A stretch of 64,000 bases of DNA, from the IMG/VR virus record IMGVR_UViG_3300032053_000007; one strand, written 5' to 3'. The position numbers and the translations under genes were made by a program. Source of the DNA: a virus. Lineage: Duplodnaviria; Heunggongvirae; Uroviricota; Caudoviricetes. The notes under the pieces were generated by a model. It searched no databases, had not been told where the DNA came from, and saw only the letters and a list, made by a program, of their open reading frames with translations. Of this stretch, positions 2,166 through 48,370 are shown piece after piece; the first letter of the stretch is position 1, and every line of letters starts with the position of its first letter.

Positions 2166-3078
2166 GGGCTTCAAAGTTTCTTTCACTCTTCTTTGGGTTA
2201 GAGATGATACCCCATTTTTAGGGAAAGTAGCTAAAGATGTAGTTCTTCTTGTGCCTATTTACAATACTACAAGACGTTGCTGGAAAGTTTTCGAACGAGC
2301 ACTTTATCGCTTAGACCCACAGCCTGAAAAAGTCATCTTCTGCGAAAACAATAGCGTAGATAATACTCTTGAACTGATTGAAAAGTTTCAGTTGCCACAC
2401 GAAGTTATTCGTATTTGGTTCAAAGAAGATGCCGCTAAGGGACAACCTTATGAGCCAATAGCTAATGTTCGTCAACTGCTTTTAACACGGGCAAGAACAT
2501 TTGGTGCAAACATAGCGATATTTCTCGATGATGACTGTATCCCACAGGATAAAGATTTTATTCAAAGGTTTTTGGATAATATTTATTACGACAATAATCT
2601 CGATATTTGTGGCGGGTCATATACTAGGGATTTTCCACAAGAAACTATGGTAGCAACCGTATGGTCTATTGATGCTCCTATTAAGGACATGCCGAAAGGG
2701 ACTGTTCCGATTATAAAACGAGGAATTGCAAAAGAGATAAGAAAAGCCAGACAACTTAATCTTAATGTTCTCGGCTTTAAATATCAAGATTATGACGAGG
2801 GAAAGATATACAAAGCGACTTGCACAAGTGCTGGTGCTTTGGCGTTAAGCAGAAAAATTCTTAATGATAAAAGATTGAATTTTGTTCCTATACGCCATGA
2901 TTTGGCTAAACAAGAAGAGGGGGCAAGCGAAGACTTTGGATTTTGTCTTTTAGCTGGTAGTTTGGGATATTCAGTTCATCTTGATTTCAGAATAAAGTTC
3001 GCTCATTTGGGTGCTATGTCTAATGAAACGGCAAAAAACCGTCCGTGGGCTACCTATGTGAAAGATTTCAAATATTGA
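2143..3078 (+). CDS. glycosyltransferase family 2-like
   Basis: VLLVPIYNT N-terminus, FLDDDC DxD motif; stop TGA inside cassette 3076. Confidence 0.65.
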   Translation: MLPLIEIEGFKVSFTLLWVRDDTPFLGKVAKDVVLLVPIYNTTRRCWKVFERALYRLDPQPEKVIFCENNSVDNTLELIEKFQLPHEVIRIWFKEDAAKGQPYEPIANVRQLLLTRARTFGANIAIFLDDDCIPQDKDFIQRFLDNIYYDNNLDICGGSYTRDFPQETMVATVWSIDAPIKDMPKGTVPIIKRGIAKEIRKARQLNLNVLGFKYQDYDEGKIYKATCTSAGALALSRKILNDKRLNFVPIRHDLAKQEEGASEDFGFCLLAGSLGYSVHLDFRIKFAHLGAMSNETAKNRPWATYVKDFKY

Positions 3079-6584: not shown

Positions 6585-7298
6585 ATGAAACAAAAACAGA
6601 AATGTTCATCATGTGGACAAGATTATTTCGTAACAATGTTGAAGGTTTACGTCTTCAAGAAACATACTTGCCCTGACGACAAAACAGAATTGGCGAAGTC
6701 TATTGATGGGAATATTTTTGGTTGCCCTAAATGTAAGAAGGTATTTCGTAAAACTGTTCCAACCGAATGGAATAGTATGGGCACAAAAATTGAGGGTTCA
6801 ACTCGAAGTCTCGAAGAAAAAGGAAAAAGACTAATAAAGGAACCGAACACAGAGGTTGACAATGTTATGATTCCAGAGAAATCAATGTGCCAGAAATGTC
6901 GTAATTGGCAAATTAGAAGCGAACAAGCTACCAAGAATCGTGAACGAAAAATTGCAATGGGTGTGCCTGATGACATAAAGGTGGTTCCAGATTCGATAAG
7001 TAACGCTGATATTTACAAATATGAAATTTTCAGAAAAACCCAGACAGACTATCAGGAAACTAGAAAAGCGGAAGCATATGAACTACAGAAGAAAGAACGT
7101 GCCGCAATGGAAGCTGAACGCCAAGCAAAACTAGCCGAACAATTTAAGAAACCAGAAACTATGATACCCACAAAAGAAGAAATGATACCATTGATTGACC
7201 CCGAAACTGCAAAAATCATAGAAGAAGTAAAGAAGAAAGACGCTCACATAGCCGAACTGAAAAAGAAACTTGAGAAAGCACAAAAGGCTGAGAAGTAA
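6585..7298 (+). CDS. zinc-ribbon / coiled-coil protein
   Basis: CSSC, CPKC, CQKC; K/E-rich helical C-terminus; SD GTGATTGAA. Confidence 0.6.
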   Translation: MKQKQKCSSCGQDYFVTMLKVYVFKKHTCPDDKTELAKSIDGNIFGCPKCKKVFRKTVPTEWNSMGTKIEGSTRSLEEKGKRLIKEPNTEVDNVMIPEKSMCQKCRNWQIRSEQATKNRERKIAMGVPDDIKVVPDSISNADIYKYEIFRKTQTDYQETRKAEAYELQKKERAAMEAERQAKLAEQFKKPETMIPTKEEMIPLIDPETAKIIEEVKKKDAHIAELKKKLEKAQKAEK

Positions 7299-8416
7299 TG
7301 ACAGGCGCAGATAATCCAGACGAAATCTGGAAACCTTCCAAAGTATTCAAAAGGTTGGAGAAATTAGGAAAGAAGATGAGAAAACCACGAAAGATTCCAG
7401 AAGGATTCGAATGGGACCCTAAAGCTAAAGAATTGATTGATACTAGATGTAATAATGCAAAACTGAGAAAGTTGGTTAAGGAATCTGTTAAGGTTGATTT
7501 CGATAAACCAGCCATATGTATATCTCCATTCTTTACTGGAACAAAGAAACGCCAAAAAGAACTTCCGTGGGAACACTACCCTCATATTCCTATTTTGACA
7601 ACTAATGCCAGACTTAGAAGGTCATTGCTCGGACTTAGACTTCAATGGACAATAAAAGAAGATGGTGAAAATGTTACCATATGGAAGAGAAAGAAACCAC
7701 ATACGCGGAAACAGTTCGAGTTTGTCATATCAAGTCATAATCAAGAGATAGCCGCTAAGGATATTCAAGCCAGAGTAAGAAAAGATTGTGTAGAGGATTA
7801 TGAGAAAATCGTAGCACTAATCGAAGCTAATCCAACATTCAGAGTAATTGTAGAAGAATGTGCCAAAGGTGCAAGCGTCACAGGGATAAGAAGGTATGAA
7901 AAGCCTATCCTGTTCGTTGTTGACATCTACGATACCGCACTCAAGAATTTCCTTCCTTATACACAGGTATATCAATATTGTTATCACTCTAAAATTCCAG
8001 TTGTCCAGCTTTACGCATCAACAAGACACAGAACAATAAAGGATTTGATAAAGTTTTCTAATCACGTTCTGGAATACTGTAACACCGAAAAGGATTACGG
8101 CAAAGATGAAGGTATGGTACTGAAAACATTCGATAAAGAAGGAGAGTATATTCAAGCAAAAGTGAAACTAGATATTCCAAAGCCAATAGTCGAACGGATA
8201 CGAGAGGGACCGCCAAAGTTACCACAAATTCCAGAGAGCGAAATCATGGGTGCAATAAGCCATGTCGAAGCGGACTTTGGATTAGATGGTACACCAAAAC
8301 ATGATATGCCACTTATTGCTAAAGCCGTTTCAGAAGAATGCCGAAAACATCTCTACTCAAGTCGTGGAAACTTGTTCACATTCTATGAAGATTACATGGA
8401 GCGAAGAAAGAAATGA
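7298..8416 (+). CDS. ATP-dependent RNA/DNA ligase-like nucleotidyltransferase
   Basis: motif I KEDG (K120), motif IV EGMVLK, motif V AKVK. Confidence 0.6.
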   Translation: MTGADNPDEIWKPSKVFKRLEKLGKKMRKPRKIPEGFEWDPKAKELIDTRCNNAKLRKLVKESVKVDFDKPAICISPFFTGTKKRQKELPWEHYPHIPILTTNARLRRSLLGLRLQWTIKEDGENVTIWKRKKPHTRKQFEFVISSHNQEIAAKDIQARVRKDCVEDYEKIVALIEANPTFRVIVEECAKGASVTGIRRYEKPILFVVDIYDTALKNFLPYTQVYQYCYHSKIPVVQLYASTRHRTIKDLIKFSNHVLEYCNTEKDYGKDEGMVLKTFDKEGEYIQAKVKLDIPKPIVERIREGPPKLPQIPESEIMGAISHVEADFGLDGTPKHDMPLIAKAVSEECRKHLYSSRGNLFTFYEDYMERRKK

Positions 8417-8956: not shown

Positions 8957-9174
8957 TATGTCCACATTGCAGAAAAGGAGAATTAGTAAATCCCAGACAT
9001 AACGTTCAACTAGATGCCGACCTTTATACTTGTAATGTTTGTCATCGTGGTTGGCATCAGGATAAAAAGAAGAGATGGCACAGTCACTTTGCGGCAGACG
9101 TTGAAGTATATAGTGAAAATGGGCATACTCTAATAGACTGTTCAACTTGGCACATAAATGAGGGAAGAAAATGA
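8953..9174 (+). CDS. zinc-ribbon protein
   Basis: CPHC..CNVC. Confidence 0.6.
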   Translation: MICPHCRKGELVNPRHNVQLDADLYTCNVCHRGWHQDKKKRWHSHFAADVEVYSENGHTLIDCSTWHINEGRK

Positions 9175-9596
9175 ACTGGCTTAAAAAAGCTAAAAAGAGT
9201 CTTAAAGAAAAATATAACCCCGATACACAGATAGATAAATGTGAATTGTGCGTATGTTGCTTCAAGAAATATAGAGAAGAATATGCCGTGGATTTTAACG
9301 ATGTATTTTTGAGGGCTTCTAATCTCGATAGTCGTATTAGTGGGGAATATTCACCTTATTACAACCTTATTAGGTTGAACAAAATGTATTTGAAACGTTT
9401 GTTCCAATTGAAAACCGTTGATGATGTAATTAGCCACGAGTTGGAACATGCATTAATTTATCGAATAATGCGGCGATTTGGTTTTTCAGAAGAAGTAAGC
9501 GATATTGGTTCTCTCTGTGTTTCCAAACCGTCACAATTTGATTTAAAAGATTTACGAGAGAAACTACATAAAAGGAAGCCAAAAAAATATGCCTGA
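9171..9596 (+). CDS. small HExxH metallopeptidase-like protein
   Basis: VISHELEHALIY. Confidence 0.55.
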   Translation: MNWLKKAKKSLKEKYNPDTQIDKCELCVCCFKKYREEYAVDFNDVFLRASNLDSRISGEYSPYYNLIRLNKMYLKRLFQLKTVDDVISHELEHALIYRIMRRFGFSEEVSDIGSLCVSKPSQFDLKDLREKLHKRKPKKYA

Positions 9597-10266
9597 TGAA
9601 GAGAAAAGAAAAGAAATAAGACACCCAAGTTTTGGTGTAATAAATATCTCTAGGGGCGTTTGCTCAGAGAAAATGAATTTGTTTGGAAGCAGTATCCAGC
9701 AGAGAACATTCATCAGAGTAGATATTAGCAAAGCTATTCTTATGAGGGACCTTTACAAAGATTGGATTATGTCGGACCACGGCGTACCGATAGTATCCGT
9801 TTATCTTTCGCCGTCACAGTTTGCAGATGCTATAACATCTTTGAATCAGGGTGAAGGAACCCCATGCACAATACGTTACATGGATGGACATGAAGTAAAA
9901 GAGGCACAATTTGAAAGTAAACGTGTGCAGTTCGATACCGAATTCGAAGATAAGATGAAGGAAGTCGCATCGACTACTAACCAATTTTACACCAAGATTG
10001 CTGGGATACTAGCGAAGCCGAGCATAGGAAAACATGATAGGGAAGAAATTCAAAAGCAACTCGACCAGTTAAAGATGCAGATAGAAAATAATGTTCCTTT
10101 TATAAAAAGACAATTCTCAGAACAGATGGATGAAACTGTAGTCGAAGCAAAGAATGAAGTTACCGCATTCATAGAAGACAAAATAAAGAAGTTGGGCTTA
10201 GAGGGATACAAAAAGGAACTACAGAAATCTTTAGAATTCAAGGAAGAAAAGAAGGAAGAACCATGA
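9589..10266 (+). CDS. hypothetical protein
   Basis: track ORF 225 aa; helical K/E-rich C-terminal half. Confidence 0.6.
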   Translation: MPDEEKRKEIRHPSFGVINISRGVCSEKMNLFGSSIQQRTFIRVDISKAILMRDLYKDWIMSDHGVPIVSVYLSPSQFADAITSLNQGEGTPCTIRYMDGHEVKEAQFESKRVQFDTEFEDKMKEVASTTNQFYTKIAGILAKPSIGKHDREEIQKQLDQLKMQIENNVPFIKRQFSEQMDETVVEAKNEVTAFIEDKIKKLGLEGYKKELQKSLEFKEEKKEEP

Positions 10267-27896: not shown

Positions 27897-28841
27897 ATGA
27901 GCGAAGAACAAAGTAAAAAAGAACTAGAGGAAAGAGCTAAATCTGTAATGGAGAGAATGGAAGAGATAATCGCTAAGGCTCAGAATGATGGAACGCTAGA
28001 GAGTTTTAACAAACCAATTCAACTTACTAAAGACTTTCTGACCACTAGACCGAACGATGCAAAGATAAAGACACAAATAGCATTATTCAAAAGCAGAACC
28101 TTCCTAGACAATTTCTTCTTAGACAAAGACGATAAACCTATGGGGGGCATTCCGAAAGTTGCACAGATAGGTGTGGTCGGAAACCCAGATGTCGGCAAGT
28201 CTTTAATCGCTCAGGAAGTTGCGCTCAGATTAGCTAGTGACGGAAACAAAGTTATTTTCACAACTAGCGAAGATATTTTCCAAGCTGACAACGACAGATT
28301 TGATTTGCAGAGTCGAATGAAACAGATGGCAACTTTTCTGGGACTGAGTTGGGAAAACATAAAGCAGAATCTTTTTGTGCTGGACGTTATTGCACACGGC
28401 GAACTTAGAGAATGGAATACACTTGTTTCAACTTATCGCGTACTCGTAGAACAGGAAAAGGCTGAGTTTCTAATTGTCGATTCGTTAACTCTCCTAGATG
28501 ATTATCGTGCTGGACTGAAATTCCACTTAGGCGAATTTGTCCGCTATAATCAGAAGAAAGGCGTGACAGGAATCTTTATCTCACAGAAAGCAAATGAGGA
28601 ATCAGTTGACCAACACGGACTTGCAGGGGGCATTGCATTAAGCCATTTGCTAGACGTGGAGTTTGAAATCAACTTTAAGAAACTCTCAAGTTGGGACGCT
28701 CAAATGAAAATCGACACCGAAGCAAAACAAGGCGAACTTCTACACTTCATACGGGTTCTCAAGTGTCGGCTAGGCAAGGCTGATATGCGATACCACAAAC
28801 TCCAAATAAGTAAAGATGGGATACTTCAATTAATCAAGTGA
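27897..28841 (+). CDS. KaiC/RadA-like RecA-superfamily ATPase
   Basis: Walker A GNPDVGKS, Walker B FLIVDSLT. Confidence 0.7.
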   Translation: MSEEQSKKELEERAKSVMERMEEIIAKAQNDGTLESFNKPIQLTKDFLTTRPNDAKIKTQIALFKSRTFLDNFFLDKDDKPMGGIPKVAQIGVVGNPDVGKSLIAQEVALRLASDGNKVIFTTSEDIFQADNDRFDLQSRMKQMATFLGLSWENIKQNLFVLDVIAHGELREWNTLVSTYRVLVEQEKAEFLIVDSLTLLDDYRAGLKFHLGEFVRYNQKKGVTGIFISQKANEESVDQHGLAGGIALSHLLDVEFEINFKKLSSWDAQMKIDTEAKQGELLHFIRVLKCRLGKADMRYHKLQISKDGILQLIK

Positions 28842-31553: not shown

Positions 31554-32450
31554 ATGAGAAATATACTAAAGAATAAAAACGGCGAATGGAGCATTATTCG
31601 AATTGCTATTGTTGTCATCATTTCCGCATTTCTAGTGTTGACAGGCGTTCTAGGAATCAGGACTGTTCCAAGCGGTTACATAGGCGTTTCTACTCAATTC
31701 GGGCAAATTACAGGCACAACGGGTGAAGGCATTCATTGGGTCAACATTTGGTTTGGACAAGACATAGTGAACATTGACTTGCAGATTCATAAAGCAGAAC
31801 TAGCAAACATGTCTTGTGGAACTAACGACATGCAAGAAGTCACAACCACAGTTGCAATAAACTATCGAATTGAGTCTGGATTTGCAGAGGATATTTACAG
31901 AACACTCCGCACAGATTGGGAATCACGGGTTATAATCAACAACATGCAAGAAAGTCTAAAAGGTTCAATCTCTACTTTCAAAGCAGAAGAACTTCTCCAA
32001 AAACGAGATGCAGTAAAAGTTCTCTTTTTAGACACACTTCGCTCACGAATAAAGGATTATCACATAACAGTCGTTGACGTTCAGCTAGAGAACTTCGCAT
32101 TCTCAACAAAGTTCAACGAAGCCATTGAGAACAAAGTAACAGCCGAACAGCAAGCAATCACAGAAAAGAACAACTTAGAAATAGTTCGCTATCAACAGGA
32201 ACAGGAAATTCTCAAGCAACAAGCACAAGCAAACATGACAAGAATTGAAGCAGACGCATACGCATACGCAACTTTGGCAAAAGCCAATGCAGACGCGGAA
32301 GCATTGCAATTAATCGCACAGAAACTAAATGTTAGCCCAGAATATCTTCAATATCTCTATCTGCAACAATGGGACGGCAAACTGCCGACCTATTACGGAA
32401 GCGGTATAATTCCGTTCTTCCAACTGCCAACCAATTCGACAACTCCATAA
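31554..32450 (+). CDS. SPFH/band-7 (prohibitin-like) membrane protein
   Basis: N-terminal TM, RTVPSGYIGVSTQFGQ SPFH core, A/Q/E-rich coiled C-terminus. Confidence 0.75.
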   Translation: MRNILKNKNGEWSIIRIAIVVIISAFLVLTGVLGIRTVPSGYIGVSTQFGQITGTTGEGIHWVNIWFGQDIVNIDLQIHKAELANMSCGTNDMQEVTTTVAINYRIESGFAEDIYRTLRTDWESRVIINNMQESLKGSISTFKAEELLQKRDAVKVLFLDTLRSRIKDYHITVVDVQLENFAFSTKFNEAIENKVTAEQQAITEKNNLEIVRYQQEQEILKQQAQANMTRIEADAYAYATLAKANADAEALQLIAQKLNVSPEYLQYLYLQQWDGKLPTYYGSGIIPFFQLPTNSTTP

Positions 32451-34174: not shown

Positions 34175-34183
34175 GTGAATGGA

Positions 34184-35041
34184 ATGACCGAAACAGAAAA
34201 TAAAATCGCGGTTGAAATATCTGAACCCGATAAGGTTCAAGAAATGAGCGATGCAATACTTGAAATGATAGTGAAGAACCTAGTCGATAACGGAAGATTG
34301 CTTGTTATTGGGCTAGGGGGAACGGGCAAGACAAACGCCGTGAAGCACATAGTAAGATACATTCGAAACTCACAAAGATATAAAGAGGGAAAAATAGTAA
34401 TTCGAATAGGCGATAGTGCTAATACATGGAAACTCACATTTGATGAAATACCCTACGTTGACATAACAAAGAAACCGAGCATTCCAGAGGACGAGAAAAC
34501 AGTTTTGCTTGATTTGGGATTCTTATCAACTGCAAAAAATGTTAGCCTAGTCGAAAACTTAGTCGGACAAGACTATTACATTCAGAGAGAATCAATGAAC
34601 AAGAACAACGGGACGGCAGAAATCCAGAGAATCTACGTTCTGGAAGAGATTCAGAACTTGTTTGGTTCTTACAAGAAATCTGACTTCTGGTTGAAGATTT
34701 GGAGCGAATCAAGAAATTATAGTCAATTCTTCATAGGAATAGGTCAACGTCTGAGTGACATTTCTACTCAGATAGTTGAGCGCACAAAATATCTACTGAT
34801 AGGTTCTCTCGCTGGCGATAACGACATCTCGAAATTGAAAAGGGCATTTGGTTCAGAGAAGGGACAGAGAATAGCAAATGTAGTTATGAGTTTGCGAAAA
34901 GGCGAATTTCTCTGGGTTGACAGAGAGGGCGAAAACTCTATGAAAATTTCGTTTCCAAAGTTCGAACAGAACGGTAAACCTTATGAATTTAACGACAAAA
35001 CCATTAACACAAGGATTCATGCCGAGAGAGTTTTCCTATGA
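34184..35041 (+). CDS. P-loop NTPase (FtsK/HerA/A32-type candidate)
   Basis: Walker A GLGGTGKT, Walker B-like RIYVLEE; ATG 34184 after SD AGGTGA (track used GTG 34175). Confidence 0.6.
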   Translation: MTETENKIAVEISEPDKVQEMSDAILEMIVKNLVDNGRLLVIGLGGTGKTNAVKHIVRYIRNSQRYKEGKIVIRIGDSANTWKLTFDEIPYVDITKKPSIPEDEKTVLLDLGFLSTAKNVSLVENLVGQDYYIQRESMNKNNGTAEIQRIYVLEEIQNLFGSYKKSDFWLKIWSESRNYSQFFIGIGQRLSDISTQIVERTKYLLIGSLAGDNDISKLKRAFGSEKGQRIANVVMSLRKGEFLWVDREGENSMKISFPKFEQNGKPYEFNDKTINTRIHAERVFL

Positions 35042-41487: not shown

Positions 41488-41624
41488 CAGAAGAGAAAAT
41501 GATAGAATGTTTTAGATGTGGAAAACTTTGGTTCTGCAAACCCTTCGCTGGAAGTCGTGCACTTTTTTGTCCCGAATGTCTAAAACTATTGTATAAACAA
41601 AAAGAGAAAGTTCGGTTCGATTAG
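41484..41624 (+). CDS. zinc-ribbon VxFD-tail mini-protein (46 aa)
   Basis: CFRCGKLWFC..CPEC; ends EKVRFD; stop TAG, last gene of array. Confidence 0.55.
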   Translation: MTEEKMIECFRCGKLWFCKPFAGSRALFCPECLKLLYKQKEKVRFD

Positions 41625-41729
41625 TCCCCTACCCCTAGCTACATTTGACAGGTAAATAGACTAGGGAAAAAGACGTTCTGGATGCTAGGGCGAAGCCAAT
41701 GGGAACTGAAGCCTGAAGTCGGTGCTTTT

Positions 41730-41745
41730 TTAATCAGTTGATTAA
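41730..41745. promoter_or_regulatory. TTAATCA-NN-TGATTAA palindrome
   Basis: ttaatcagttgattaa. Confidence 0.55.
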
Positions 41746-41899
41746 AAGTCTGGGGAATACGTTGGGGGCTGGCAGAGGGCTTCACCATAAACCGAAATCT
41801 AATTGGGAAGAAAAAACGCCTATGTGCGTTATGTGACACTCAGGATTCTACTAAAAATTTAATTTTCGAGGGGACGGAAAGTTACACCGAAAGTGTGAC

Positions 41900-42031
41900 C
41901 TAGCCTTCGTCCTCTAGTGCTTCCTCAAGTTCTGACGGGTCGGGACAACCAACGGGTCGCCTGAAAGTTTTAACTACTTTTGCAAGAACAATTAAACCTA
42001 TTATGAAACCCAGAGTATCAAACGGAAACAT
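41900..42031 (-). CDS. small membrane protein (43 aa)
   Basis: MFPFDTLGFIIGLIVLAKVV..; ATG about 12 nt after TSS predicted from minus-strand cassette 42067-42099. Confidence 0.4.
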   Translation of the reverse strand: MFPFDTLGFIIGLIVLAKVVKTFRRPVGCPDPSELEEALEDEG

Positions 42032-42066
42032 ATTTGTGCCTCTTTGTGAATACTACAACACGGTAG

Positions 42067-42099
42067 CTTATAAATCTTTCCCTAAAAACGCCATGCTCA
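42067..42099 (-). promoter_or_regulatory. GAGCATGG-box/TATA promoter cassette (minus strand)
   Basis: reverse complement reads tGAGCATGGcgtTTTT..TTTATAAG; offset 24. Confidence 0.55.
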
Positions 42100-42164
42100 A
42101 TTTCCAGCACAGCTTTCACAATGGTCGCTTTTGCCAAACGGGACGCGGTGCGAGGCGCATTTAA

Positions 42165-42180
42165 TTAATCAGGTGATTAA
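42165..42180. promoter_or_regulatory. TTAATCA-NN-TGATTAA palindrome
   Basis: ttaatcaggtgattaa. Confidence 0.55.
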
Positions 42181-42230
42181 CTGCTTCACGCCCCTTCACG
42201 CCGAGGCACGATGCGAACTGTTGAGCTTAT

Positions 42231-42246
42231 TTAATCAAATGATTAA
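42231..42246. promoter_or_regulatory. TTAATCA-NN-TGATTAA palindrome
   Basis: ttaatcaaatgattaa. Confidence 0.5.
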
Positions 42247-42340
42247 TTTCAAAACTCGAAGCCTTTACATTCGAAGTCTGCGCGTTGCCGTTTTCCAAGA
42301 CTGATTTTCCAAAACGAACCCGAACGAAACCCAGATTCCA

Positions 42341-42520
42341 TAGGACTGATGGTCTTTTTAACATCGTTTCCATTGGTCGAAAAGCATTATTTGAGCCTCT
42401 TCGAACAAAAGAAGGACACTCGTTCAATATCGTTTATATATGTTCGAAATTATTGAACGATTTGCCCCGAAGAGAACGCTCAGGGGATGAAATTGAGAGT
42501 CGGGCATTATCCACAGTCCT
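42341..42520 (+). repeat. conserved 180-nt noncoding element, copy 1 (candidate structured RNA)
   Basis: collinear with 56347-56526: taggactgatg .. hairpin cgttcaat/attgaacg .. cgggcattatccacagtcct. Confidence 0.5.
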
Positions 42521-42629
42521 TTGGGGGACACTACTTCGGGGCACAGTTAAACTCTAGGTGTAATAAAAGTTTCGACCATGCCTTTGACCATCAACATTTA
42601 AGTCACTCAGAGTGCAACCTTTCACTTTT

Positions 42630-42645
42630 TTAAACAGTTGATTAA
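42630..42645. promoter_or_regulatory. palindrome (one mismatch)
   Basis: ttaaacagttgattaa, 7 nt upstream of box. Confidence 0.5.
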
Positions 42646-42651
42646 CTAAAA

Positions 42652-42684
42652 CGAGCATGGTCGTTCTGGGGAAACCTTTATAAG
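42652..42684 (+). promoter_or_regulatory. GAGCATGG-box/TATA promoter cassette
   Basis: cGAGCATGGtcgTTCT..TTTATAAG; offset 24; leader cgctggcatctata shared with 44919 cassette. Confidence 0.65.
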
Positions 42685-42714
42685 CTACGCTGGCATCTAT
42701 AAAGGTGTGGAAAA

Positions 42715-44442
42715 ATGACAAAGCAGAAACAAGCAAAGACGAACAACTTCTCTAAGATACTTGACGAGATGAGGAATCTTGCCATAGCAATTACGAAGGA
42801 CAAACGGATTCGTATCAAGTATATTCCAGAACAACCAACTTCTGCTTTCAATATGGAAAACTTTGAGATTTCTTTGAGTTTACAGAGTTATCCCGATTTC
42901 GTGAAAACATCGCCCCGTCTATTCCGAAAAATCCTAGACGGTGACATGGTTCACGAGTGCGGTCATCTGATTCTAACAAAACCGAATTGGGAATTTTTCA
43001 ACAATTGGACAACAAAAATCAAACGACAGAGAGGATTTTACAAGCTGGCTCACGAAGTTTGCAACATAGTTGAAGATAAGCGCGTGAATCATTTCATAAT
43101 TCTCAGATACAGGTTTGATGTCGGCAAGAGGCTACTTTTGGCGAATTTGATACTAAAAGACATGATAGACAACACAATTGAAAAGCCACAAATAGCCATG
43201 TCAACCATCTTACCGAAGGGCGAAAACTTAGGCGAAAACGAAATTCCAAACATGACAATTCAAGCTGGACAACAAGACGGGGTTTACATGGTTGCAATTT
43301 TGTGCAATGAAGGTCTATATGAGGCTAAATGCACAGAGTTATGGAACAAACTAAGCCCAGATGCTAGAAAGGACTGTGAAACAGCCCTTAAAGTGCTAGA
43401 GGGGACGAAATATCAACGTGTCAAACTCGACATAATAAGGTCTTGCCAAACGATTTATGAATTGGTAGCTAAACACTTGAACGCTGACTATACGACAAAG
43501 GAATATGTCGTTTCTAGAAGAGGGGGCAACGTAAAGGGCAAAATATCGGACAGACTTAGGCAATTACTAGAAAAAGAGGAAGAGCAAGAAAAGGCAGAAG
43601 AGGACAAGAAGAAACACCTAGAAGATTTGCAGAAAGGTTCGGGTGCTGGCGAAGGCACAGGCGAAGAGATTCCAGCCCCAGACCCAGATTTTGAGGCGTA
43701 TTCGAAACTTCTGGACGAATGCAAGCCTGAAATTTCCGAGCTATTGAATCAACTAAAGAAGAAAATGAAACCGAGAGTTCAACGGGACATTTTCCAGAAA
43801 CGCGGAAAAATGATGAGTCCAATTGTTCCACGCATCTACACAAACAGCTTTAGGGGAACCGTTCGCAATGTGTATCTGCGTACAACAACAAAATTTGAGA
43901 AGGAACAAGTCGCAATTCAATTTTGGTTCGATTTCTCAGGGTCAGTTAGTCGAATAGAGGCTGAAAAGATAACCACTATACTGAATGAGGTCTTTGGACA
44001 TTACGTTGACGATTACGGGTTCAGTATTGGGTGCTTTGGGGCAGATACCCAGAAAGTAAAGACTTTCTTTGAAACCTTCGAAAACACACGGGCAAGAATT
44101 GGAGCTATTTCGGTGAATGCTGGCGGTACTGAGGTTTCCGTTGGATTAGAGGCAAGCCTGAGAATGTTCAATACGATTAAAGGCGAACGCCGAAAGATTC
44201 TGGTCATTGCGTCCGATTTCTGCTTCTGTGGTGATGAAGAAACGAAAGCAGAGGAATTAATCGACCAATATGCGAAAGCTGGAATTGAATGTATCTTCAT
44301 AGGTTTCTGTGACTGTGAGAATGTAGAAACCTTCGCAAGCAAAGTGAAAAACTTGAAGTGCTCACGAACACGGATAAACCAAATATCCGAATTACCTCAG
44401 AGATTCCTAAACGTGTATCTAAACGTAGAAACCCAGAAGTGA
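42715..44442 (+). CDS. vWA-domain protein with N-terminal HExxH putative metallopeptidase domain
   Basis: MVHECGHLI; MIDAS-like FDFSGSVS; E/K-rich linker; architecture as in metallopeptidase-plus-VWA proteins partnered with MoxR ATPases. Confidence 0.65.
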   Translation: MTKQKQAKTNNFSKILDEMRNLAIAITKDKRIRIKYIPEQPTSAFNMENFEISLSLQSYPDFVKTSPRLFRKILDGDMVHECGHLILTKPNWEFFNNWTTKIKRQRGFYKLAHEVCNIVEDKRVNHFIILRYRFDVGKRLLLANLILKDMIDNTIEKPQIAMSTILPKGENLGENEIPNMTIQAGQQDGVYMVAILCNEGLYEAKCTELWNKLSPDARKDCETALKVLEGTKYQRVKLDIIRSCQTIYELVAKHLNADYTTKEYVVSRRGGNVKGKISDRLRQLLEKEEEQEKAEEDKKKHLEDLQKGSGAGEGTGEEIPAPDPDFEAYSKLLDECKPEISELLNQLKKKMKPRVQRDIFQKRGKMMSPIVPRIYTNSFRGTVRNVYLRTTTKFEKEQVAIQFWFDFSGSVSRIEAEKITTILNEVFGHYVDDYGFSIGCFGADTQKVKTFFETFENTRARIGAISVNAGGTEVSVGLEASLRMFNTIKGERRKILVIASDFCFCGDEETKAEELIDQYAKAGIECIFIGFCDCENVETFASKVKNLKCSRTRINQISELPQRFLNVYLNVETQK

Positions 44443-44448
44443 GTAAAA

Positions 44449-44613
44449 ATGGTTTGCATAATTGACGATAAAGAATGTAGAAAATTGGCAGACGAAATTT
44501 CTAAAGACCTCTTCGAATACAATAAACACAAGATAAAGCTAACCAAAAAATTCTTGTGGACTATGCTTTATTGCGAATTGAAACGAAGTAAACTTAACAA
44601 AACTCGAATGTGA
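44449..44613 (+). CDS. hypothetical small protein (54 aa)
   Basis: ATG 6 nt after vWA stop. Confidence 0.4.
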   Translation: MVCIIDDKECRKLADEISKDLFEYNKHKIKLTKKFLWTMLYCELKRSKLNKTRM

Positions 44614-44619
44614 TAACTT

Positions 44620-44847
44620 GTGAAATATAAAAGACATTGCACACATTGTAAGAACAATTTTTTCTGCAACGGAAAATGCAAAAGTGATAGACTTAAAAAT
44701 CCGAATGACTGTTATTGTCTTGAGTGTGTAAAAAAAGTTTCGGAAGAGTTTTCAAAGTTGTCTGGGGCAGACTCTACTTATGAATCTTTTAACGTTGTTC
44801 AATTTCATTGCCAAGAATCGGGCAGAGAAGAAGTGCAATTTACTTAA
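44620..44847 (+). CDS. ZR-F family zinc-ribbon mini-protein
   Basis: CTHCKNNFFCNGKC..CYCLEC; ends EEVQFT with TAA and no downstream gene. Confidence 0.65.
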   Translation: MKYKRHCTHCKNNFFCNGKCKSDRLKNPNDCYCLECVKKVSEEFSKLSGADSTYESFNVVQFHCQESGREEVQFT

Positions 44848-44896
44848 ACTTTTGGTGCAACCTTTGGTTCGGGCGGGAGAGGGGTTTTGAGAAATT

Positions 44897-44912
44897 TTAA
44901 TCAGTTGATTAA
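44897..44912. promoter_or_regulatory. TTAATCA-NN-TGATTAA palindrome
   Basis: ttaatcagttgattaa, 7 nt upstream of box. Confidence 0.55.
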
Positions 44913-44918
44913 CTAAAA

Positions 44919-44951
44919 TGAACATGGTCTTTCTAAGCAAACATTTAAATA
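44919..44951 (+). promoter_or_regulatory. GAGCATGG-box/TATA promoter cassette
   Basis: tGAACATGGtctTTCT..TTTAAATA; offset 24. Confidence 0.65.
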
Positions 44952-44985
44952 GGACGCTGGCATCTATACTCGTAAGGTAATAAAG

Positions 44986-45873
44986 ATGAACTCAGAATTT
45001 GAAAAGATTCATGCAAAGGTCGAATCAGCACTTGAAGGTGCTGGCATCTACGTCAAAGGCATCGAGTTCGTGGACGAACATGGCTACATTGAAAAGTCAA
45101 GAGCGATTCTTGAAATTGTCGGCAACCTTAGATTAGTCGGCGAAACGGGGACGGGCAAAACAACTCTTGTTCACAAGTTGGCTGAATTGTTAGAGGTTCC
45201 GCTTTTTGAAATTGTCTTAACACGGGACGTGACAAAGTGGGATTTGCTGGCATGTGATACTCTGAAAGCTGGAAGCACAGAAACAAGAGATGGAATCATA
45301 ATTCAATGGTTGAACAGCGAGAAAGGTCTGCTTTACATAGACGGGTTCAACTATGCAGAACCATCGATAATTTCACTTCTGGAATCATTGGCAGACTTTA
45401 GGGGAAACGTGTATATTCCAGAATACAAGAAGCAATTCACACGGACAGCACAGCACTATCTCGTTATCAGCTATAACCCCTCAGAAAAATCGGGTTACTC
45501 TGGGACATTCATCGAGAACATTGCAACCATTAGACGATTTGAAGGTCTGATAATCGAATACCTTAGCCCCCAGAAAGAACGCGAATTGGTAAAGAAGTTC
45601 TCTGGAAACTATGACTTTTCTGCGAAGTTCGTAGAAATTGCCAAAAAGACGCGAACCGAATACGAGAACGGAAAACTTAGAACGCCCCTCACGACAGGCA
45701 ACCTAATAAACTACGGCAAACTCTACAAAGCGAAGATGTCCGAAGAGGACATAATCGATATAGCAAGTTCGCTTTACACCGCAAGAGAAGAGCGCAATTT
45801 ATTTAGGTCGTTCTTCGAAGATAGCTCTGAGATAGACGTAGAAAAGTTGAAAAAGAAAGAAGAGGATACCTAA
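44986..45873 (+). CDS. AAA+ ATPase, MoxR/CbbQ/CobS-like (AAA_5 type)
   Basis: Walker A GETGTGKTT; LLYIDGFNYA Walker B region (Gly where Glu is expected); IRRFEG like the MoxR DRF motif. Confidence 0.7.
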   Translation: MNSEFEKIHAKVESALEGAGIYVKGIEFVDEHGYIEKSRAILEIVGNLRLVGETGTGKTTLVHKLAELLEVPLFEIVLTRDVTKWDLLACDTLKAGSTETRDGIIIQWLNSEKGLLYIDGFNYAEPSIISLLESLADFRGNVYIPEYKKQFTRTAQHYLVISYNPSEKSGYSGTFIENIATIRRFEGLIIEYLSPQKERELVKKFSGNYDFSAKFVEIAKKTRTEYENGKLRTPLTTGNLINYGKLYKAKMSEEDIIDIASSLYTAREERNLFRSFFEDSSEIDVEKLKKKEEDT

Positions 45874-46200
45874 ATGAATAGATTCTTTTGCAATAGAAAA
45901 ATTATAGTAGCGAACCCTGCTGGCGAAGAACCCCCAACACCACAACCGACACGAAAAACTTTGCAGAAACCGTTTGACCCCAAAAACCCCCCGAAAGGTA
46001 TCTGTGAAATTTGCCTAGACCCGAAACACAAAACTGCACATTGCGAAGCACACGGACGGATTCACTATATTCACAAAAAATGCCACAAAATTGCAGATGG
46101 AAAACTTCTCGAATTCATACGTCATTTCTACTGTAAAGAATTCGAAGAGTTACCAATTGAACAACGTGCAATTTGGCTATGGCTACACGATAAATGGTAA
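45874..46200 (+). CDS. Cys/His-rich (zinc-binding?) protein
   Basis: CEIC..HC..H..C..H; starts right after AAA+ stop. Confidence 0.5.
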   Translation: MNRFFCNRKIIVANPAGEEPPTPQPTRKTLQKPFDPKNPPKGICEICLDPKHKTAHCEAHGRIHYIHKKCHKIADGKLLEFIRHFYCKEFEELPIEQRAIWLWLHDKW

Positions 46201-46233
46201 ACCCAAAATTCCACTTTTTTGAGGAAAACCAAA

Positions 46234-46386
46234 ATGACTGATTATATTGAAGAGGCGTTAGCGCGAAGAGAAATGCAAGAATTTCTAATCGAGAGAAGAA
46301 AAGACTATCAGAAAAAATACGCTCAAACTCACAAACGAAAATCGAAACCGAAAAAGAAAGTTGAACGGGAAATTTTCCATTGGTGA
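46234..46386 (+). CDS. basic small protein (50 aa)
   Basis: below cutoff; K/R-rich. Confidence 0.4.
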   Translation: MTDYIEEALARREMQEFLIERRKDYQKKYAQTHKRKSKPKKKVEREIFHW

Positions 46387-46390
46387 AAAA

Positions 46391-46606
46391 ATGACATATA
46401 TCGGGCAAGACGAAGAATTAACGATAGAGCGTGGTTGTTTTAATTGCGCTCGATTCAAAAAATGTCATCTTATTGAGGGACAAAGAAGAAATGGAATTAA
46501 TTTTATGGAGATTTTGAAGGACGGTGCGGAAGATTATCGTTATGGTTGTTGTTGCACAACTTATCTAGCAGAATCCGAAGCTAGAGAACAGGTGCAATTT
46601 ACTTGA
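46391..46606 (+). CDS. GCFNC family mini-protein
   Basis: trimmed to ATG 46391; RGCFNCARFKKC..YRYGCCC; ends EQVQFT. Confidence 0.6.
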   Translation: MTYIGQDEELTIERGCFNCARFKKCHLIEGQRRNGINFMEILKDGAEDYRYGCCCTTYLAESEAREQVQFT

Positions 46607-46890
46607 TTCAAAATTGTCCGTCTTGCGGTTCAATTCGCTTGACTCGAAAATGTCCGTCTTGTGGTTCTATTCTGGAAGAACAAAGTGGAACACTTTTTTT
46701 CACAGATAGTTTTTCACAACACGATAGACAAAAAATAAGGGAAACTCACTTTTTGCATTATTTTTGCGAAGTTTGTCGTAAAAATGATTTGCCTTTTGAC
46801 TTTTTATTTTTCAAAGGAAAACAATTCATTTATGATAAGGGCAGATGGAACCTCTTAGCTCCTGAGAGAGAATGTGTTCAATTCACCTAA
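46603..46890 (+). CDS. zinc-ribbon VxFT-tail protein
   Basis: CPSCGS..CPSCGS; ends ECVQFT encoded GAATGTGTTCAATTCACCTAA (no SD, TAA stop). Confidence 0.6.
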   Translation: MIQNCPSCGSIRLTRKCPSCGSILEEQSGTLFFTDSFSQHDRQKIRETHFLHYFCEVCRKNDLPFDFLFFKGKQFIYDKGRWNLLAPERECVQFT

Positions 46891-46946
46891 TTAATCAACC
46901 ATAAGACTTAAATACTTAATTAACCATCTATTAATTAGTGTTTCAA

Positions 46947-47300
46947 ATGAAATGTCAAGACTGTGAAAAAGAAACAAATACAAAATCTCAAAGATGTCCT
47001 GAATGCCAAAAGATATATCACCAAAAATGGCTAGAAGAATTAAAACTCTGGGCGATTCAAAAGTTAGGCGATAAGTGTTTTCATTGCGATAAACATTTTG
47101 ATTCTTGTGTTTATGATTTTCACCATGAAGGAAACGATACATGGCTTCGTTGCAATGAACAACAAAAAAATGCGAATCGAAGAGTAAAAGAATTGGTTCG
47201 TTGGAGAAGGGCAGAGAAAATTCCAGAGGACGTTCGATTAGTCTGCGCGAATTGTCACAGAATTATTAGTCATAAATCGTTTAATCACCTGATTAAGTAA
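46947..47300 (+). CDS. HNH endonuclease
   Basis: CFHCDK..DFHHEGN..LVCANCHRIISH; 3-prime end encodes palindrome 47281 (FNHLIK). Confidence 0.65.
   Translation: MKCQDCEKETNTKSQRCPECQKIYHQKWLEELKLWAIQKLGDKCFHCDKHFDSCVYDFHHEGNDTWLRCNEQQKNANRRVKELVRWRRAEKIPEDVRLVCANCHRIISHKSFNHLIK
47281..47296. promoter_or_regulatory. TTAATCA-NN-TGATTAA palindrome
   Basis: ttaatcacctgattaa inside end of HNH CDS, 7 nt upstream of box. Confidence 0.55.
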
Positions 47301-47302
47301 AA

Positions 47303-47335
47303 TGAGAATGGAGATTCCTAGCAAACGTTTATATA
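47303..47335 (+). promoter_or_regulatory. GAGCATGG-box/TATA promoter cassette
   Basis: tGAGAATGGagaTTCC..TTTATATA; offset 24. Confidence 0.6.
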
Positions 47336-47352
47336 GGACGCTGTATTTATAG

Positions 47353-47368
47353 TTAATCAAGTGATTAA
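47353..47368. promoter_or_regulatory. TTAATCA-NN-TGATTAA palindrome on predicted TSS
   Basis: ttaatcaagtgattaa centred about 27 nt after TATA centre. Confidence 0.55.
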
Positions 47369-47369
47369 A

Positions 47370-48059
47370 ATGGCTGACCAAAAAACGACAAACAAACTCA
47401 TCATAGACGAAAAGGCTCTTGAATCGTTAGGACTACACGGCGAAACGATTTATACAATAGAGTATGACCTTTACAGCGAGAAATATCTGACGGACGCGGA
47501 AAAGAAAAAGTTGACAAAAGAACAACGGGACGCAAACACGCGATTCAACAAACTTGCGCGAATTTTCAGAAACGCAATTGTGTTCGCTCTGAAATTCAAG
47601 CTGGACGCTGTGAAACATCTCGAAAGCAGTTGGCTTCTGGACGGCGATAAGCTGGACTTAGCTGTTGCAGAAATTGAAGAGATAAAGGCAAAGGCAAAGA
47701 GCAAAGGATTTGAGGACATCGACAGACGCATAAAAATCATTCCGATTTTCACGACCCCAGAAGGATTCGAAAACTACAAAGACAAGAAAGCAGAGTTCAT
47801 TCTTAACTTCATAATGGAACACGTCAAGATGGCAGAGGACGGGTTAAAAGACAAACGCATGGCTCAGAGCACACTTTGGAGATGTCGAAAAGCAGTTGAG
47901 ATTTGCAATTCACACATCGAAAGCATGAAGGGACACGAGCGATATAACGAAATGTTAGACACCGTGAATATGCTGGACGAATTGAACGGGCAATGCGAAA
48001 GTTTTCTCTGTGACCAAAAGGCAGAAAAGGCAAAGAAGAACAAGAAAGAAGAGGACTGA
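47370..48059 (+). CDS. hypothetical helical protein
   Basis: trimmed to ATG 47370; K/E-rich. Confidence 0.55.
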   Translation: MADQKTTNKLIIDEKALESLGLHGETIYTIEYDLYSEKYLTDAEKKKLTKEQRDANTRFNKLARIFRNAIVFALKFKLDAVKHLESSWLLDGDKLDLAVAEIEEIKAKAKSKGFEDIDRRIKIIPIFTTPEGFENYKDKKAEFILNFIMEHVKMAEDGLKDKRMAQSTLWRCRKAVEICNSHIESMKGHERYNEMLDTVNMLDELNGQCESFLCDQKAEKAKKNKKEED

Positions 48060-48091
48060 AAACTTAGACAAAAATTCGAGCGTGAAAGAAA

Positions 48092-48370
48092 ATGTTTCAA
48101 TTCAATATAATTTCAACCAAAGAAATAGAAGAGGACGCTAAACTGTTCTCAAACCTTAAAGTACCATGTTCTCTGTTGCTCATTAGAAAAGACGGTTTCG
48201 ACATAGAAGAACAGGAAGATATTGACCTTATATGCAACCTTCTTTCTCAATTTGAATATGAGGTTAGTACCGAGTCCACTTTTTATGTTTCGACAAAAGA
48301 CATAGGCAAAATTAAAGAAGTCTTAGTTGCCTACGGAATTGCATTAAATCCACACATTAAGGAAGATTAA
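48092..48370 (+). CDS. hypothetical acidic protein
   Basis: track ORF. Confidence 0.5.
   Translation: MFQFNIISTKEIEEDAKLFSNLKVPCSLLLIRKDGFDIEEQEDIDLICNLLSQFEYEVSTESTFYVSTKDIGKIKEVLVAYGIALNPHIKED

What the first reader, a model, noticed from the sequence alone, without database searches (positions are those of the whole stretch)
42630..46200. A vWA protein with an HExxH motif and a MoxR-like AAA+ ATPase, each behind an identical operator/promoter/leader module
42715..44442 combines an N-terminal HECGH motif with a C-terminal vWA-like MIDAS (FDFSGS). 44986..45873 is an AAA_5/MoxR-type ATPase (GETGTGKT, IRRF). A Cys/His-rich protein is fused directly downstream at 45874.

Both large genes have the same upstream module: palindrome, 7 nt, box, TATA, then the leader cgctggcatctata. 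This implies strict co-regulation even though they are separate transcription units.

In my by-eye alignment, the Walker B position reads D-G where D-E is expected. That could mean a hydrolysis-impaired ATPase.

MoxR-vWA pairs are known as chaperone or insertion machines. They have also been proposed as components of NTP-dependent conflict systems. In a mobile element, the pairing with a putative metallopeptidase is worth a look.
Basis: partly seen in the sequence, partly recalled or inferred. Interest (0 to 1): 0.65.

Follow-up and report, generated by a model that had tools for sequence, protein, structure and literature searches.

The report
Viral CobS/CobT-like ATPase–adaptor gene pair
These genes are a divergent copy of a two-protein module already known from many tailed viruses: a ring ATPase plus an adaptor with a protease-like head and a metal-binding tail. 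Here the ATPase lacks its catalytic glutamate, and a third, unknown protein always travels with the pair.

Summary
42715..44442 encodes a 575-aa protein. Its N-terminal domain has a zincin (M48-like) fold with invariant HExxH and E-D-x-R. A conserved Gly-rich linker and a disordered "shaft" follow. The C-terminus is a vWA domain with a complete MIDAS. 44986..45873 encodes an AAA_5/MoxR ATPase. Its Walker B reads D-G, in 112 of 120 homologs; 5 keep D-E.

This layout matches cobaltochelatase CobT and CobS. Profile and fold searches place the pair in the "cobST" / "MoxR + metallopeptidase-vWA" module already described in tailed bacterial and archaeal viruses. The kind is therefore known.

Three features are lineage-specific:
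- the missing catalytic glutamate;
- a conserved 229-aa ORFan (47370..48059) linked to the pair in every related contig examined;
- inteins at two conserved sites of the vWA protein in relatives.

The shared upstream module is real (61/74 nt). However, it is the element's general promoter, with 23 copies in the window. The palindrome-bearing version precedes five genes, including all three module genes.

No defence-system, CobN or riboswitch signal was found. The relatives found come only from metagenomic contigs, three of them IMG/VR viral contigs. The client and function remain unknown.

The parts
42630..42645 (+). Palindromic box TTAAACA-GT-TGATTAA upstream of the vWA gene (consensus TTAATCA-NN-TGATTAA, one mismatch)
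   Evidence: 24 copies in the window against 1.1 expected; it lies 23 nt upstream of the promoter core.
42653..42682 (+). Promoter core GAGCATGG-N3-TTCT-N9-TTTATA, with a BRE/TATA-like 3' part
   Evidence: 23 modules of fixed 30-nt geometry on the + strand and 2 on the - strand, typically 22-42 nt upstream of an ORF start (33 nt here).
42687..42701 (+). 15-mer ACGCTGGCATCTATA, shared exactly only with the AAA+ gene's upstream region
   Evidence: two exact copies in the window.
42715..43500 (+). N-terminal zincin (M48-like) domain of the adaptor, aa 1-262. HExxH at nt 42952..42966; E120-D121-K-R123 at nt 43072..43083.
43648..43686 (+). Conserved Gly-rich linker motif GAGEGTGEEIPAP (aa 312-324). 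It is an intein insertion site in relatives.
   Evidence: G312, G316, I319, P322 and P324 are conserved; inteins lie between GAGEG and TGEEIP in P0005, P0020 and P0059.
43765..43908 (+). Putative "shaft" (aa 351-398). Conserved in sequence but predicted disordered, with a short helix at 370-378, directly before vWA strand beta1.
   Evidence: One search gives the pLDDT and secondary structure, another the conservation. The position and shape match the CobT shaft described in bioRxiv 10.64898/2026.07.21.739949. The assignment is an inference.
43909..44442 (+). vWA domain with a complete MIDAS (D406, S408, S410 at nt 43930..43944; T472; D501)
44449..44847 (+). Two small ORFs (54 aa and 75 aa) lying between the two module genes. 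They are not conserved with the module.
   Evidence: found only in near-identical contigs; relatives carry a LAGLIDADG ORF here; other relatives have no such gap.
44897..44968 (+). Upstream module of the AAA+ gene: perfect palindrome (44897..44912), promoter core (44920..44949) and shared 15-mer (44954..44968)
44986..45873 (+). AAA_5/MoxR-family (CobS-like) ATPase. Walker A at nt 45139..45162. Walker B D119-G120 at nt 45340..45345. Sensor-1 N164, R183/R184 and K221-x-R223 are present.
   Evidence: (phrog_249, 9e-28).
45874..46200 (+). Cys/His-rich 108-aa ORF abutting the AAA+ stop codon. It is a neighbour, not a conserved module member.
   Evidence: No significant Pfam hit. Absent next to the AAA+ gene in all more distant relatives.
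47281..47368 (+). Upstream module of the third partner: palindrome (47281..47296), promoter core (47304..47333) and a second palindrome (47353..47368)
47370..48059 (+). Conserved third partner ("orf232"; 229 aa from the ATG at 47370, the listed GTG start being at 47361). A lineage-specific ORFan.
   Evidence: Linked to the AAA+ and vWA genes in L006, L013, L014 and L016-L018. Alignment A8. No Pfam, PHROG or PDB hit. Only 20 clusters among 1.84 billion representative proteins.

Best explanation
The genes form a virus-encoded motor-adaptor module of the CobS/CobT (MoxR AAA+ / vWA) type. The pair is a divergent member of the "cobST" or "MoxR + metallopeptidase-vWA" cluster known from tailed bacterial and archaeal viruses.

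Proposed mechanism, by analogy with the solved CobST complex (inferred, not shown here):
- The 295-aa AAA_5 protein forms a hexameric ring.
- The 575-aa adaptor docks its zincin-like N-domain on the ATPase lid.
- The adaptor threads the conserved, disordered shaft (aa ~351-398) into the ring pore.
- Its MIDAS face is presented to a third protein, the client.

Two features argue that this lineage is not a chelatase helper. The Walker B glutamate is glycine in 112 of 120 homologs, so the ring probably binds ATP but hydrolyses it poorly. It would then act as a nucleotide-gated clamp or switch rather than a motor. The HExxH...E-D-x-R zincin motif is invariant, which suggests a metal site under selection and possibly proteolysis.

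My preferred reading is a maturation or processing chaperone for a viral or host protein. The conserved 229-aa ORFan would be a third subunit, a regulator or the client.

My estimates: homology and architecture about 0.85; ring-shaft-MIDAS mechanism about 0.6; processing or assembly role about 0.35.
For: ATPase identity:
- Pfam AAA_5, 1e-13.
- phrog_249 "porphyrin biosynthesis" (the CobS family), 9e-28 over aa 30-293.
- PDB sequence hits to midasin, CbbQ, NorQ and CobS.

Adaptor identity:
- AF2 model pLDDT 84, with layout a1-b1b2b3-helices / linker / long helix / disordered loop with a short helix / vWA. This is the layout reported for CobT.
- hhalign to phage OC CobT gives 94.7% probability. 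To its family it gives 97%, E 1e-10, with HExxH and EDxR aligned.
- Foldseek against viral structures gives full-length matches, E down to 2.5e-13. These include "Cobalamin biosynthesis protein", "Cobalt chelatase, CobT subunit", Cantare gp56, and HVTV-1 and HCTV-2.

Linkage:
- The two genes lie on the same contig in every relative examined.
- A third conserved gene is always with them.

Other:
- Walker B statistics.
- Inteins at two conserved sites mark a core gene.
- Published precedents: PMC8651126 and PMC7824862.
Against: - No complex, structure or activity was tested here.
- The adaptor itself has no Pfam hit. The CobT Pfam and TIGR models do not match. The link to cellular CobT therefore rests on fold and layout plus the viral intermediates.
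- The shaft assignment is by position only.
- A D-G Walker B does not prove loss of hydrolysis. Another acidic residue, for example the mostly conserved E125, could substitute.
- The module sits among small early-type ORFs, not among structural genes. That does not favour an assembly role.
- The geometry of the HExxH/E120 site in the model was not measured.
Confidence: 0.6

Rival explanations
1. Cobalamin boosting. The pair is a true CobS/CobT that hijacks a host CobN-type chelatase to insert cobalt and raise B12 for viral DNA synthesis. This is the hypothesis of Liu et al. 2021 for viral cobST.
For: - Distant homology to CobS (TIGR01650 1e-5; PDB 9ujv 1.9e-5; phrog_249).
- A CobT-like layout.
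- Viral relatives are annotated as CobT.
- The hypothesis is published (PMC8651126).
Against: - CobS E142Q abolishes ATP hydrolysis, and this lineage has Gly at that position.
- TIGR01650 scores 24.9 bits against a cutoff of 558.
- No Pfam CobT or CobT_C hit in 38 homologs.
- No CobN-sized ORF in the 64 kb; the largest is 575 aa.
- No cobalamin riboswitch.
- An invariant zincin motif and a conserved third ORFan have no role in the chelatase model.
Confidence: 0.12
2. Virion-assembly chaperone with proteolytic processing. The model is the MoxR/vWA pair p618/p892 of Acidianus two-tailed virus, and this role was proposed for jumbo-phage MoxR + metallopeptidase-vWA pairs. This is a specific form of the best explanation in which the client is a structural protein.
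For: - PMC7824862 describes the same domain architecture in group 2.2 jumbo phages and proposes this role.
- The HExxH motif is invariant.
- The gene behaves as a core gene that hosts inteins.
Against: - No structural genes were identified nearby.
- The genes have early-type promoters shared with many small ORFs.
- A ring without the Walker B glutamate is a poor remodelling motor.
- There is no experimental support for the phage proposal.
Confidence: 0.25
3. Conflict or host-takeover system. A MoxR-vWA NTP-dependent system in which the zincin is an effector that cleaves a host defence or housekeeping protein after the MIDAS captures it.
For: - MoxR-vWA ternary conflict systems exist (PMC7159879).
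- The module here is also ternary and sits on a virus.
- A zincin effector is plausible.
Against: - No PADLOC hit for the vWA protein. The ATPase gives only weak matches limited to the P-loop stretch, best IetA 5e-4.
- The architecture is constant across 71 of 77 homologs, rather than having variable C-terminal effectors.
- The third gene has no VMAP, iSTAND or beta-propeller signature.
- The Pfam bpMoxR match is only to the P-loop, 0.0028, below the cutoff.
Confidence: 0.12

Closest known systems
Viral cobST cluster, also described as MoxR AAA+ plus vWA with an N-terminal metallopeptidase. Found in tailed phages and archaeal tailed viruses, e.g. Ochrobactrum phage vB_OspM_OC CobT/CobS, Brevibacterium phage Cantare gp55/gp56, HVTV-1 and HCTV-2.
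   Same: - Two linked genes.
- An AAA_5 ATPase in phrog_249.
- An adaptor with HExxH + EDxR in the N-domain and a DxSGS MIDAS vWA at the C-terminus. These are invariant in both families.
- Profile match at 97% probability.
- Full-length fold matches.
   Different: - About 25% identity for the ATPase, and no BLAST-level match for the adaptor.
- Walker B is D-G here, against D-E in phage OC.
- A conserved third ORFan is present.
- In this window the genes are separate transcription units, split by small ORFs.
Aerobic cobaltochelatase CobS-CobT (CobSTN), structures 9UJV, 9UKK and others
   Same: - The motor is an AAA+ clade-7 ring.
- The adaptor has an M48-like N-domain, a long linker, a shaft loop before the vWA domain, and a MIDAS (searches compared).
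   Different: - No significant sequence match to the CobT models.
- The catalytic glutamate is absent.
- No CobN is in view.
- The zincin motif is intact here. Whether cellular CobT keeps it was not tested.
NorQ-NorD, CbbQ-CbbO and midasin AAA/MIDAS systems
   Same: An AAA_5 ring works with a MIDAS-bearing vWA partner. The NorD VWA domain and the midasin MIDAS domain are among the top structural hits. CbbQ and NorQ are among the top sequence hits.
   Different: Those adaptors lack the zincin N-domain. Their ATPases keep Walker B D-E in the active sites.
Acidianus two-tailed virus p618 (MoxR) / p892 (vWA)
   Same: A virus-encoded MoxR-vWA pair, cited as a chaperone for tail development.
   Different: No peptidase domain is reported for it. 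No sequence comparison was made here.

Membership tests
AAA_5 / MoxR-family AAA+ ATPase (CobS, CbbQ, NorQ group) | Pfam AAA_5 match above the gathering score | tested here: met
   51.8 bits against a cutoff of 22, E 1.1e-13.
AAA_5 / MoxR-family AAA+ ATPase (CobS, CbbQ, NorQ group) | Walker A motif GxxGxGK[ST] | tested here: met
   GETGTGKT at aa 52-59. Present in 116 of 120 homologs.
AAA_5 / MoxR-family AAA+ ATPase (CobS, CbbQ, NorQ group) | Walker B motif hhhhD-E with the catalytic glutamate | tested here: not met
   The motif is LLYID-G. Gly is found in 112 of 120 homologs and Glu in 5. The register is confirmed against midasin and phage CobS.
AAA_5 / MoxR-family AAA+ ATPase (CobS, CbbQ, NorQ group) | Sensor-1 Asn, Arg finger and sensor-2 Arg | tested here: met
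   N164, R183/R184 and R223 are invariant. They were assigned by alignment and by analogy with CobS N186, R210 and R271. The sensor-2 register is uncertain.
AAA_5 / MoxR-family AAA+ ATPase (CobS, CbbQ, NorQ group) | Hexameric ring with helix-2 and pre-sensor-1 hairpins lining the pore | not testable with these tools
   The conserved segments aa 83-103 and 137-157 lie at the expected places.
vWA domain with MIDAS | vWA (Rossmann-like) fold | tested here: met
vWA domain with MIDAS | MIDAS residues DxSxS...T...D | tested here: met
   D406, S408, S410 and D501 are invariant, and T472 is at least 90% conserved.
vWA domain with MIDAS | Pfam VWA match for this protein | tested here: not met
   No Pfam family at E<=1 for the window protein. 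31 of 38 homologs hit PF00092, best 2.3e-8.
Zincin (gluzincin, M48-like) metallopeptidase | Zincin fold with HExxH on the active-site helix | tested here: met
Zincin (gluzincin, M48-like) metallopeptidase | Third zinc ligand (Glu) on the following helix, close to the two His | tested here: inconclusive
   E120/D121 are invariant on helix 109-131. Distances in the model could not be measured.
Zincin (gluzincin, M48-like) metallopeptidase | Peptidase activity | not testable with these tools
   Needs biochemistry.
Cellular CobT/CobS (aerobic cobaltochelatase) | Sequence membership (Pfam CobT/CobT_C; TIGR01650 CobS equivalog) | tested here: not met
   No CobT family among the hits of 38 homologs or in NCBIfam. 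TIGR01650 scores 24.9 bits against a cutoff of 558.55.
Cellular CobT/CobS (aerobic cobaltochelatase) | Domain layout: M48-like N-domain, linker, shaft, vWA | tested here: met
   compared with the published description.
Cellular CobT/CobS (aerobic cobaltochelatase) | A CobN partner and cobalt insertion | not testable with these tools
   No ORF longer than 575 aa in the window. The host is unknown.
Viral CobT-like / MoxR + metallopeptidase-vWA module | Full-length structural and profile similarity to viral CobT-like proteins | tested here: met
   Foldseek against BFVD: E 2.5e-13 to 1e-9 over 550-800 alignment columns. hhalign: 97% probability.
Viral CobT-like / MoxR + metallopeptidase-vWA module | Genomic linkage to a CobS-like AAA_5 gene | tested here: met
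   The window itself, the related contigs L001-L010, L013, L014 and L016-L018, and the phage examples L011 and L012.
MoxR-vWA ternary conflict systems (VMAP, iSTAND, beta-propeller, FtsH) | vWA protein with variable C-terminal effector domains | tested here: not met
   The vWA domain is C-terminal and the architecture is constant. The defining feature is taken from PMC7159879.
MoxR-vWA ternary conflict systems (VMAP, iSTAND, beta-propeller, FtsH) | A characteristic third component, or a defence-database match | tested here: not met
   orf232 has no Pfam hit. PADLOC gives nothing for the vWA protein and only weak matches limited to the P-loop stretch for the ATPase.

The most novel reading that the evidence does not exclude
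The module could be a new ternary, nucleotide-gated protease system of (probably archaeal) viruses. In this reading, a CobS-like ring that has lost its catalytic glutamate acts as an ATP-binding clamp on the adaptor's shaft. That clamp switches on an active zincin, whose substrate is captured by the MIDAS face. The lineage-specific 229-aa protein would be the third subunit or the substrate. This would make viral "cobST" a protein-processing machine and not a cobalamin gene.
Probability: 0.2. Interest if true: 0.65.

Novelty: new variant of a known kind. Interest (0 to 1): 0.42.

Why it matters
Viral cobS/cobT genes are widespread. In cyanophages they count as core genes. They are routinely listed as auxiliary metabolic genes for vitamin B12, without experimental support.

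This lineage keeps the whole motor-adaptor architecture under strong selection, as the invariant motifs and the inteins at conserved sites show. Yet it lacks the residue that the real chelatase motor needs for ATP hydrolysis, and it keeps a complete zincin motif. That is a natural experiment arguing against a chelatase role for at least part of the viral family.

It also offers concrete handles for study: G120, the HExxH motif, the shaft and a conserved third protein.

Tried and rejected
- BLAST of the region and of the adaptor against 50,697 phage records found no match.
- A scan of GTDB species-representative genomes for the ATPase found no relative.
- PDB sequence searches with the adaptor profile found only vWA hits.
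- PDB sequence searches with the N-domain profile and with phage OC CobT found nothing useful.
- The PADLOC defence models gave nothing meaningful.
- Rfam gave no family on the whole window or on 41600..48200, so there is no riboswitch.
- The sigma-70 promoter and intrinsic terminator scans showed no enrichment.
- The afdb50 fold library was unavailable.
- I considered a specific pairwise co-regulation signal. I rejected it because the promoter core occurs 23 times.
- I considered the Cys/His ORF as a module member. I rejected it because it is absent from all the more distant relatives.
- The host domain could not be settled. The BRE/TATA-like promoter and one homolog binned as Aenigmatarchaeota hint at archaea. 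A bacterial promoter reading is not excluded.

Full report
**Observation**

The ORFs and motifs are as described.

The 575-aa product of 42715..44442 carries HECGH at aa 80-84 and FDFSGS at aa 405-410. The 295-aa product of 44986..45873 carries GETGTGKT and IRRF.

The 108-aa Cys/His-rich ORF begins at 45874, directly after the TAA stop. It abuts the AAA+ gene and is not fused to it.

The two upstream regions share 61 of 74 nt, including an exact 17-mer and an exact 15-mer.

**The ATPase**

- It passes Pfam AAA_5 at 51.8 bits against a cutoff of 22.
- It matches PHROG 249, "porphyrin biosynthesis", the phage CobS family, at 9e-28 over nearly its full length.
- Its best solved relatives are the midasin AAA domains, CbbQ, NorQ and CobS.
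- The Walker B strand reads LLYID-G. It aligns to L(L/V)D-E of midasin, to VLD-E of a phage CobS, and to FVD-E of five members of its own family.
- Among 120 homologs, 112 have Gly at this position and 5 have Glu.
- Walker A, sensor-1 N164, R183/R184 and K-T-R223 remain invariant.

The substitution is therefore old, lineage-wide and under selection. It occurs in a protein that otherwise looks competent to bind ATP. In CobS, the equivalent E142Q mutant loses hydrolysis but still forms an ATP-bound ring holding the CobT shaft.

**The adaptor**

The window protein has no Pfam hit of its own. However, 31 of 38 homologs hit VWA, and the family profile hits integrin I domains.

Three elements lie between the two domains:
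- a Gly-rich motif, GAGEGTGEEIPAP;
- a long helix;
- a 48-residue segment that is conserved in sequence but predicted disordered, with a short helix at its centre, directly before vWA strand beta1.

**Identity**

A 2026 preprint on the cobaltochelatase CobSTN describes CobT as follows:
- an M48C-like N-domain (helix, three-stranded sheet, then helices);
- a disordered linker of about 90 residues;
- two helices;
- a "shaft" loop with a short terminal helix that inserts into the CobS ring;
- a vWA domain with MIDAS.

The layout here is the same.

Sequence evidence links the adaptor to viral "CobT" proteins:
- hhalign of the family profile against Ochrobactrum phage OC CobT gives 94.7% probability.
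- Against that protein's family it gives 97%, E 1e-10, with HExxH and ED-R aligned. Those motifs and DxSGS are invariant in that family too.
- Foldseek against predicted viral structures gives full-length matches, E down to 2.5e-13. The hits are proteins named "Cobalamin biosynthesis protein", "Cobalt chelatase, CobT subunit" or "VWFA domain containing protein". They come from many tailed phages and from haloarchaeal tailed viruses.
- In phage OC and phage Cantare, these genes sit next to the CobS-like ATPase.

The literature already covers this kind of module. Liu et al. 2021 describe a cobST cluster widespread in tailed viruses, with cobT often misannotated as a peptidase. Iyer et al. 2021 describe a MoxR ATPase plus a vWA protein fused to an N-terminal metallopeptidase in jumbo phages, and propose a virion-assembly role.

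Membership in cellular CobS and CobT is not met at the sequence level.

**Distribution and context**

The homologs found come only from metagenomic contigs of up to about 150 kb. One of them is a 4-kb NCBI fragment binned as Candidatus Aenigmatarchaeota. None was found in 185,579 GTDB species-representative genomes. Three are IMG/VR viral contigs.

Other genes in the window include:
- an RNA ligase;
- a KaiC-type ATPase;
- an SPFH protein;
- a glycosyltransferase;
- a weak terminase-like ATPase;
- a protein of a phage-wide unknown family.

The element is most likely a large virus. Its host is unresolved.

**A third partner**

A tblastn survey of all fetched loci shows that the ORF at 47370..48059 is linked to the pair in every relative. 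The arrangements are:
- orf232-AAA-vWA, contiguous, in L013;
- AAA-orf232-vWA in L017 and L018;
- with small insertions in L014 and L016;
- downstream of the pair in L006.

The protein has no Pfam, PHROG or PDB match. Only 20 clusters exist among 1.84 billion representative proteins. The Cys/His ORF and the two small ORFs between the pair are not conserved.

**Inteins**

Six vWA homologs carry inteins at two sites:
- just before C116, four residues upstream of E120;
- inside the GAGEG|TGEEIP linker motif.

In L006 a LAGLIDADG ORF lies between the two genes. Inteins home to conserved sites of important genes. This marks both motifs as functionally constrained.

**Promoters**

The promoter core GAGCATGG-N3-TTCT-N9-TTTATA occurs 23 times on the + strand and twice on the - strand. 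It typically lies 22-42 nt before an ORF start.

The palindrome TTAATCA-NN-TGATTAA occurs 24 times against 1.1 expected.

The palindrome lies directly upstream of the core at only five genes: 5205, the vWA gene, the AAA+ gene, orf232 and 52387.

The palindrome-bearing class does cover all three module genes, which fits common control of a module that small inserted genes have pulled apart. Only the 15-mer after the TATA is private to the vWA and AAA+ genes.

Similar modules precede the same genes in L006. In L018 a different module of about 60 nt is shared by the AAA+ gene and orf232.

Sigma-70 sites are not enriched. The AAA-N-TTTATA part resembles an archaeal BRE/TATA, but a bacterial reading is not excluded.

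**Function**

Shown here: the homology, the architecture, the linkage and the motif conservation.

Inferred: the ring-shaft-MIDAS mechanism, by analogy with CobST.

The chelatase role is unlikely for this lineage for four reasons:
- the catalytic glutamate is absent;
- no CobN or riboswitch is present;
- the zincin motif is invariant;
- there is an extra conserved partner.

A conflict-system reading lacks its defining features.

I favour a nucleotide-gated chaperone or processing complex acting on an unknown viral or host client, held with modest confidence.

**Verdict**

This is a real and correctly observed feature. The kind is known (viral CobS/CobT-like, or MoxR + zincin-vWA). It is a new variant because of the Walker B glycine and the conserved third gene. 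Interest is moderate.

Noticed in passing
window, 28 sites on the + strand, e.g. 16721, 17581, 18916, 40013, 40219, 44833, 46592: A junction motif, GTGCAATTTAC(A/T)TGA, ends many small Cys-rich ORFs. It gives them a common ...E-V-Q-F-T C-terminus. The motif also holds a GGTG ribosome-binding site and the overlapping start (ATGA or TTGA) of the next ORF. There are 28 copies on the + strand and 2 on the - strand. It looks like a reusable translational-coupling cassette between small genes.
   Followed up: partly
window, whole length; e.g. 961, 5135, 10938, 26432, 31484, 54745: 23 promoter-like modules of fixed 30-nt geometry, GAGCATGG-N3-TTCT-N9-TTTATA, lie almost all on the + strand. There are also 24 copies of the perfect palindrome TTAATCA-NN-TGATTAA. 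Sigma-70 consensus sites are not enriched.
   Followed up: partly
window 41640..42630: About 1 kb upstream of the vWA gene has no convincing + strand ORF. It has higher GC and three copies of the palindrome (41730, 42165, 42231). It also has a - strand promoter module (42084..42098) facing a 43-aa hydrophobic ORF (41900..42031). It may be a regulatory or non-coding RNA region. Rfam finds nothing there.
   Followed up: no
L006 6588..9350 and 9407..9934; proteins P0005, P0011, P0018-P0020, P0059: Inteins interrupt the vWA homologs at two different conserved sites. A free-standing LAGLIDADG ORF sits between the vWA and AAA+ genes in one lineage.
   Followed up: yes
L018 7930..8003 and 9125..9197: In a relative, the AAA+ gene and orf232 each sit behind a nearly identical upstream module of about 60 nt. 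Its sequence is unrelated to the one in the window.
   Followed up: partly
window 9589..10266: A 225-aa protein matches PHROG 6452 (unknown function) at 3e-40. It has homologs in 53 phage records infecting diverse bacteria, many of them large genomes (about 60-260 kb among those listed). This is the clearest phage-like marker found in the window.
   Followed up: partly
window 7298..8416, 27897..28841, 31554..32450, 2143..3078, 34175..35041: Other recognisable genes are an RNA ligase, a KaiC/RadA-type ATPase, an SPFH/Band-7 protein, a family-2 glycosyltransferase, and a 288-aa P-loop ATPase with weak similarity to the terminase large subunit.
   Followed up: no
L011 3821..4843 (Brevibacterium phage Cantare gp55): This phage CobS-like ATPase reads L-L-L-N-E at Walker B, with Asp replaced by Asn. 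Degenerate Walker B motifs may therefore recur among viral CobS-like proteins.
   Followed up: no
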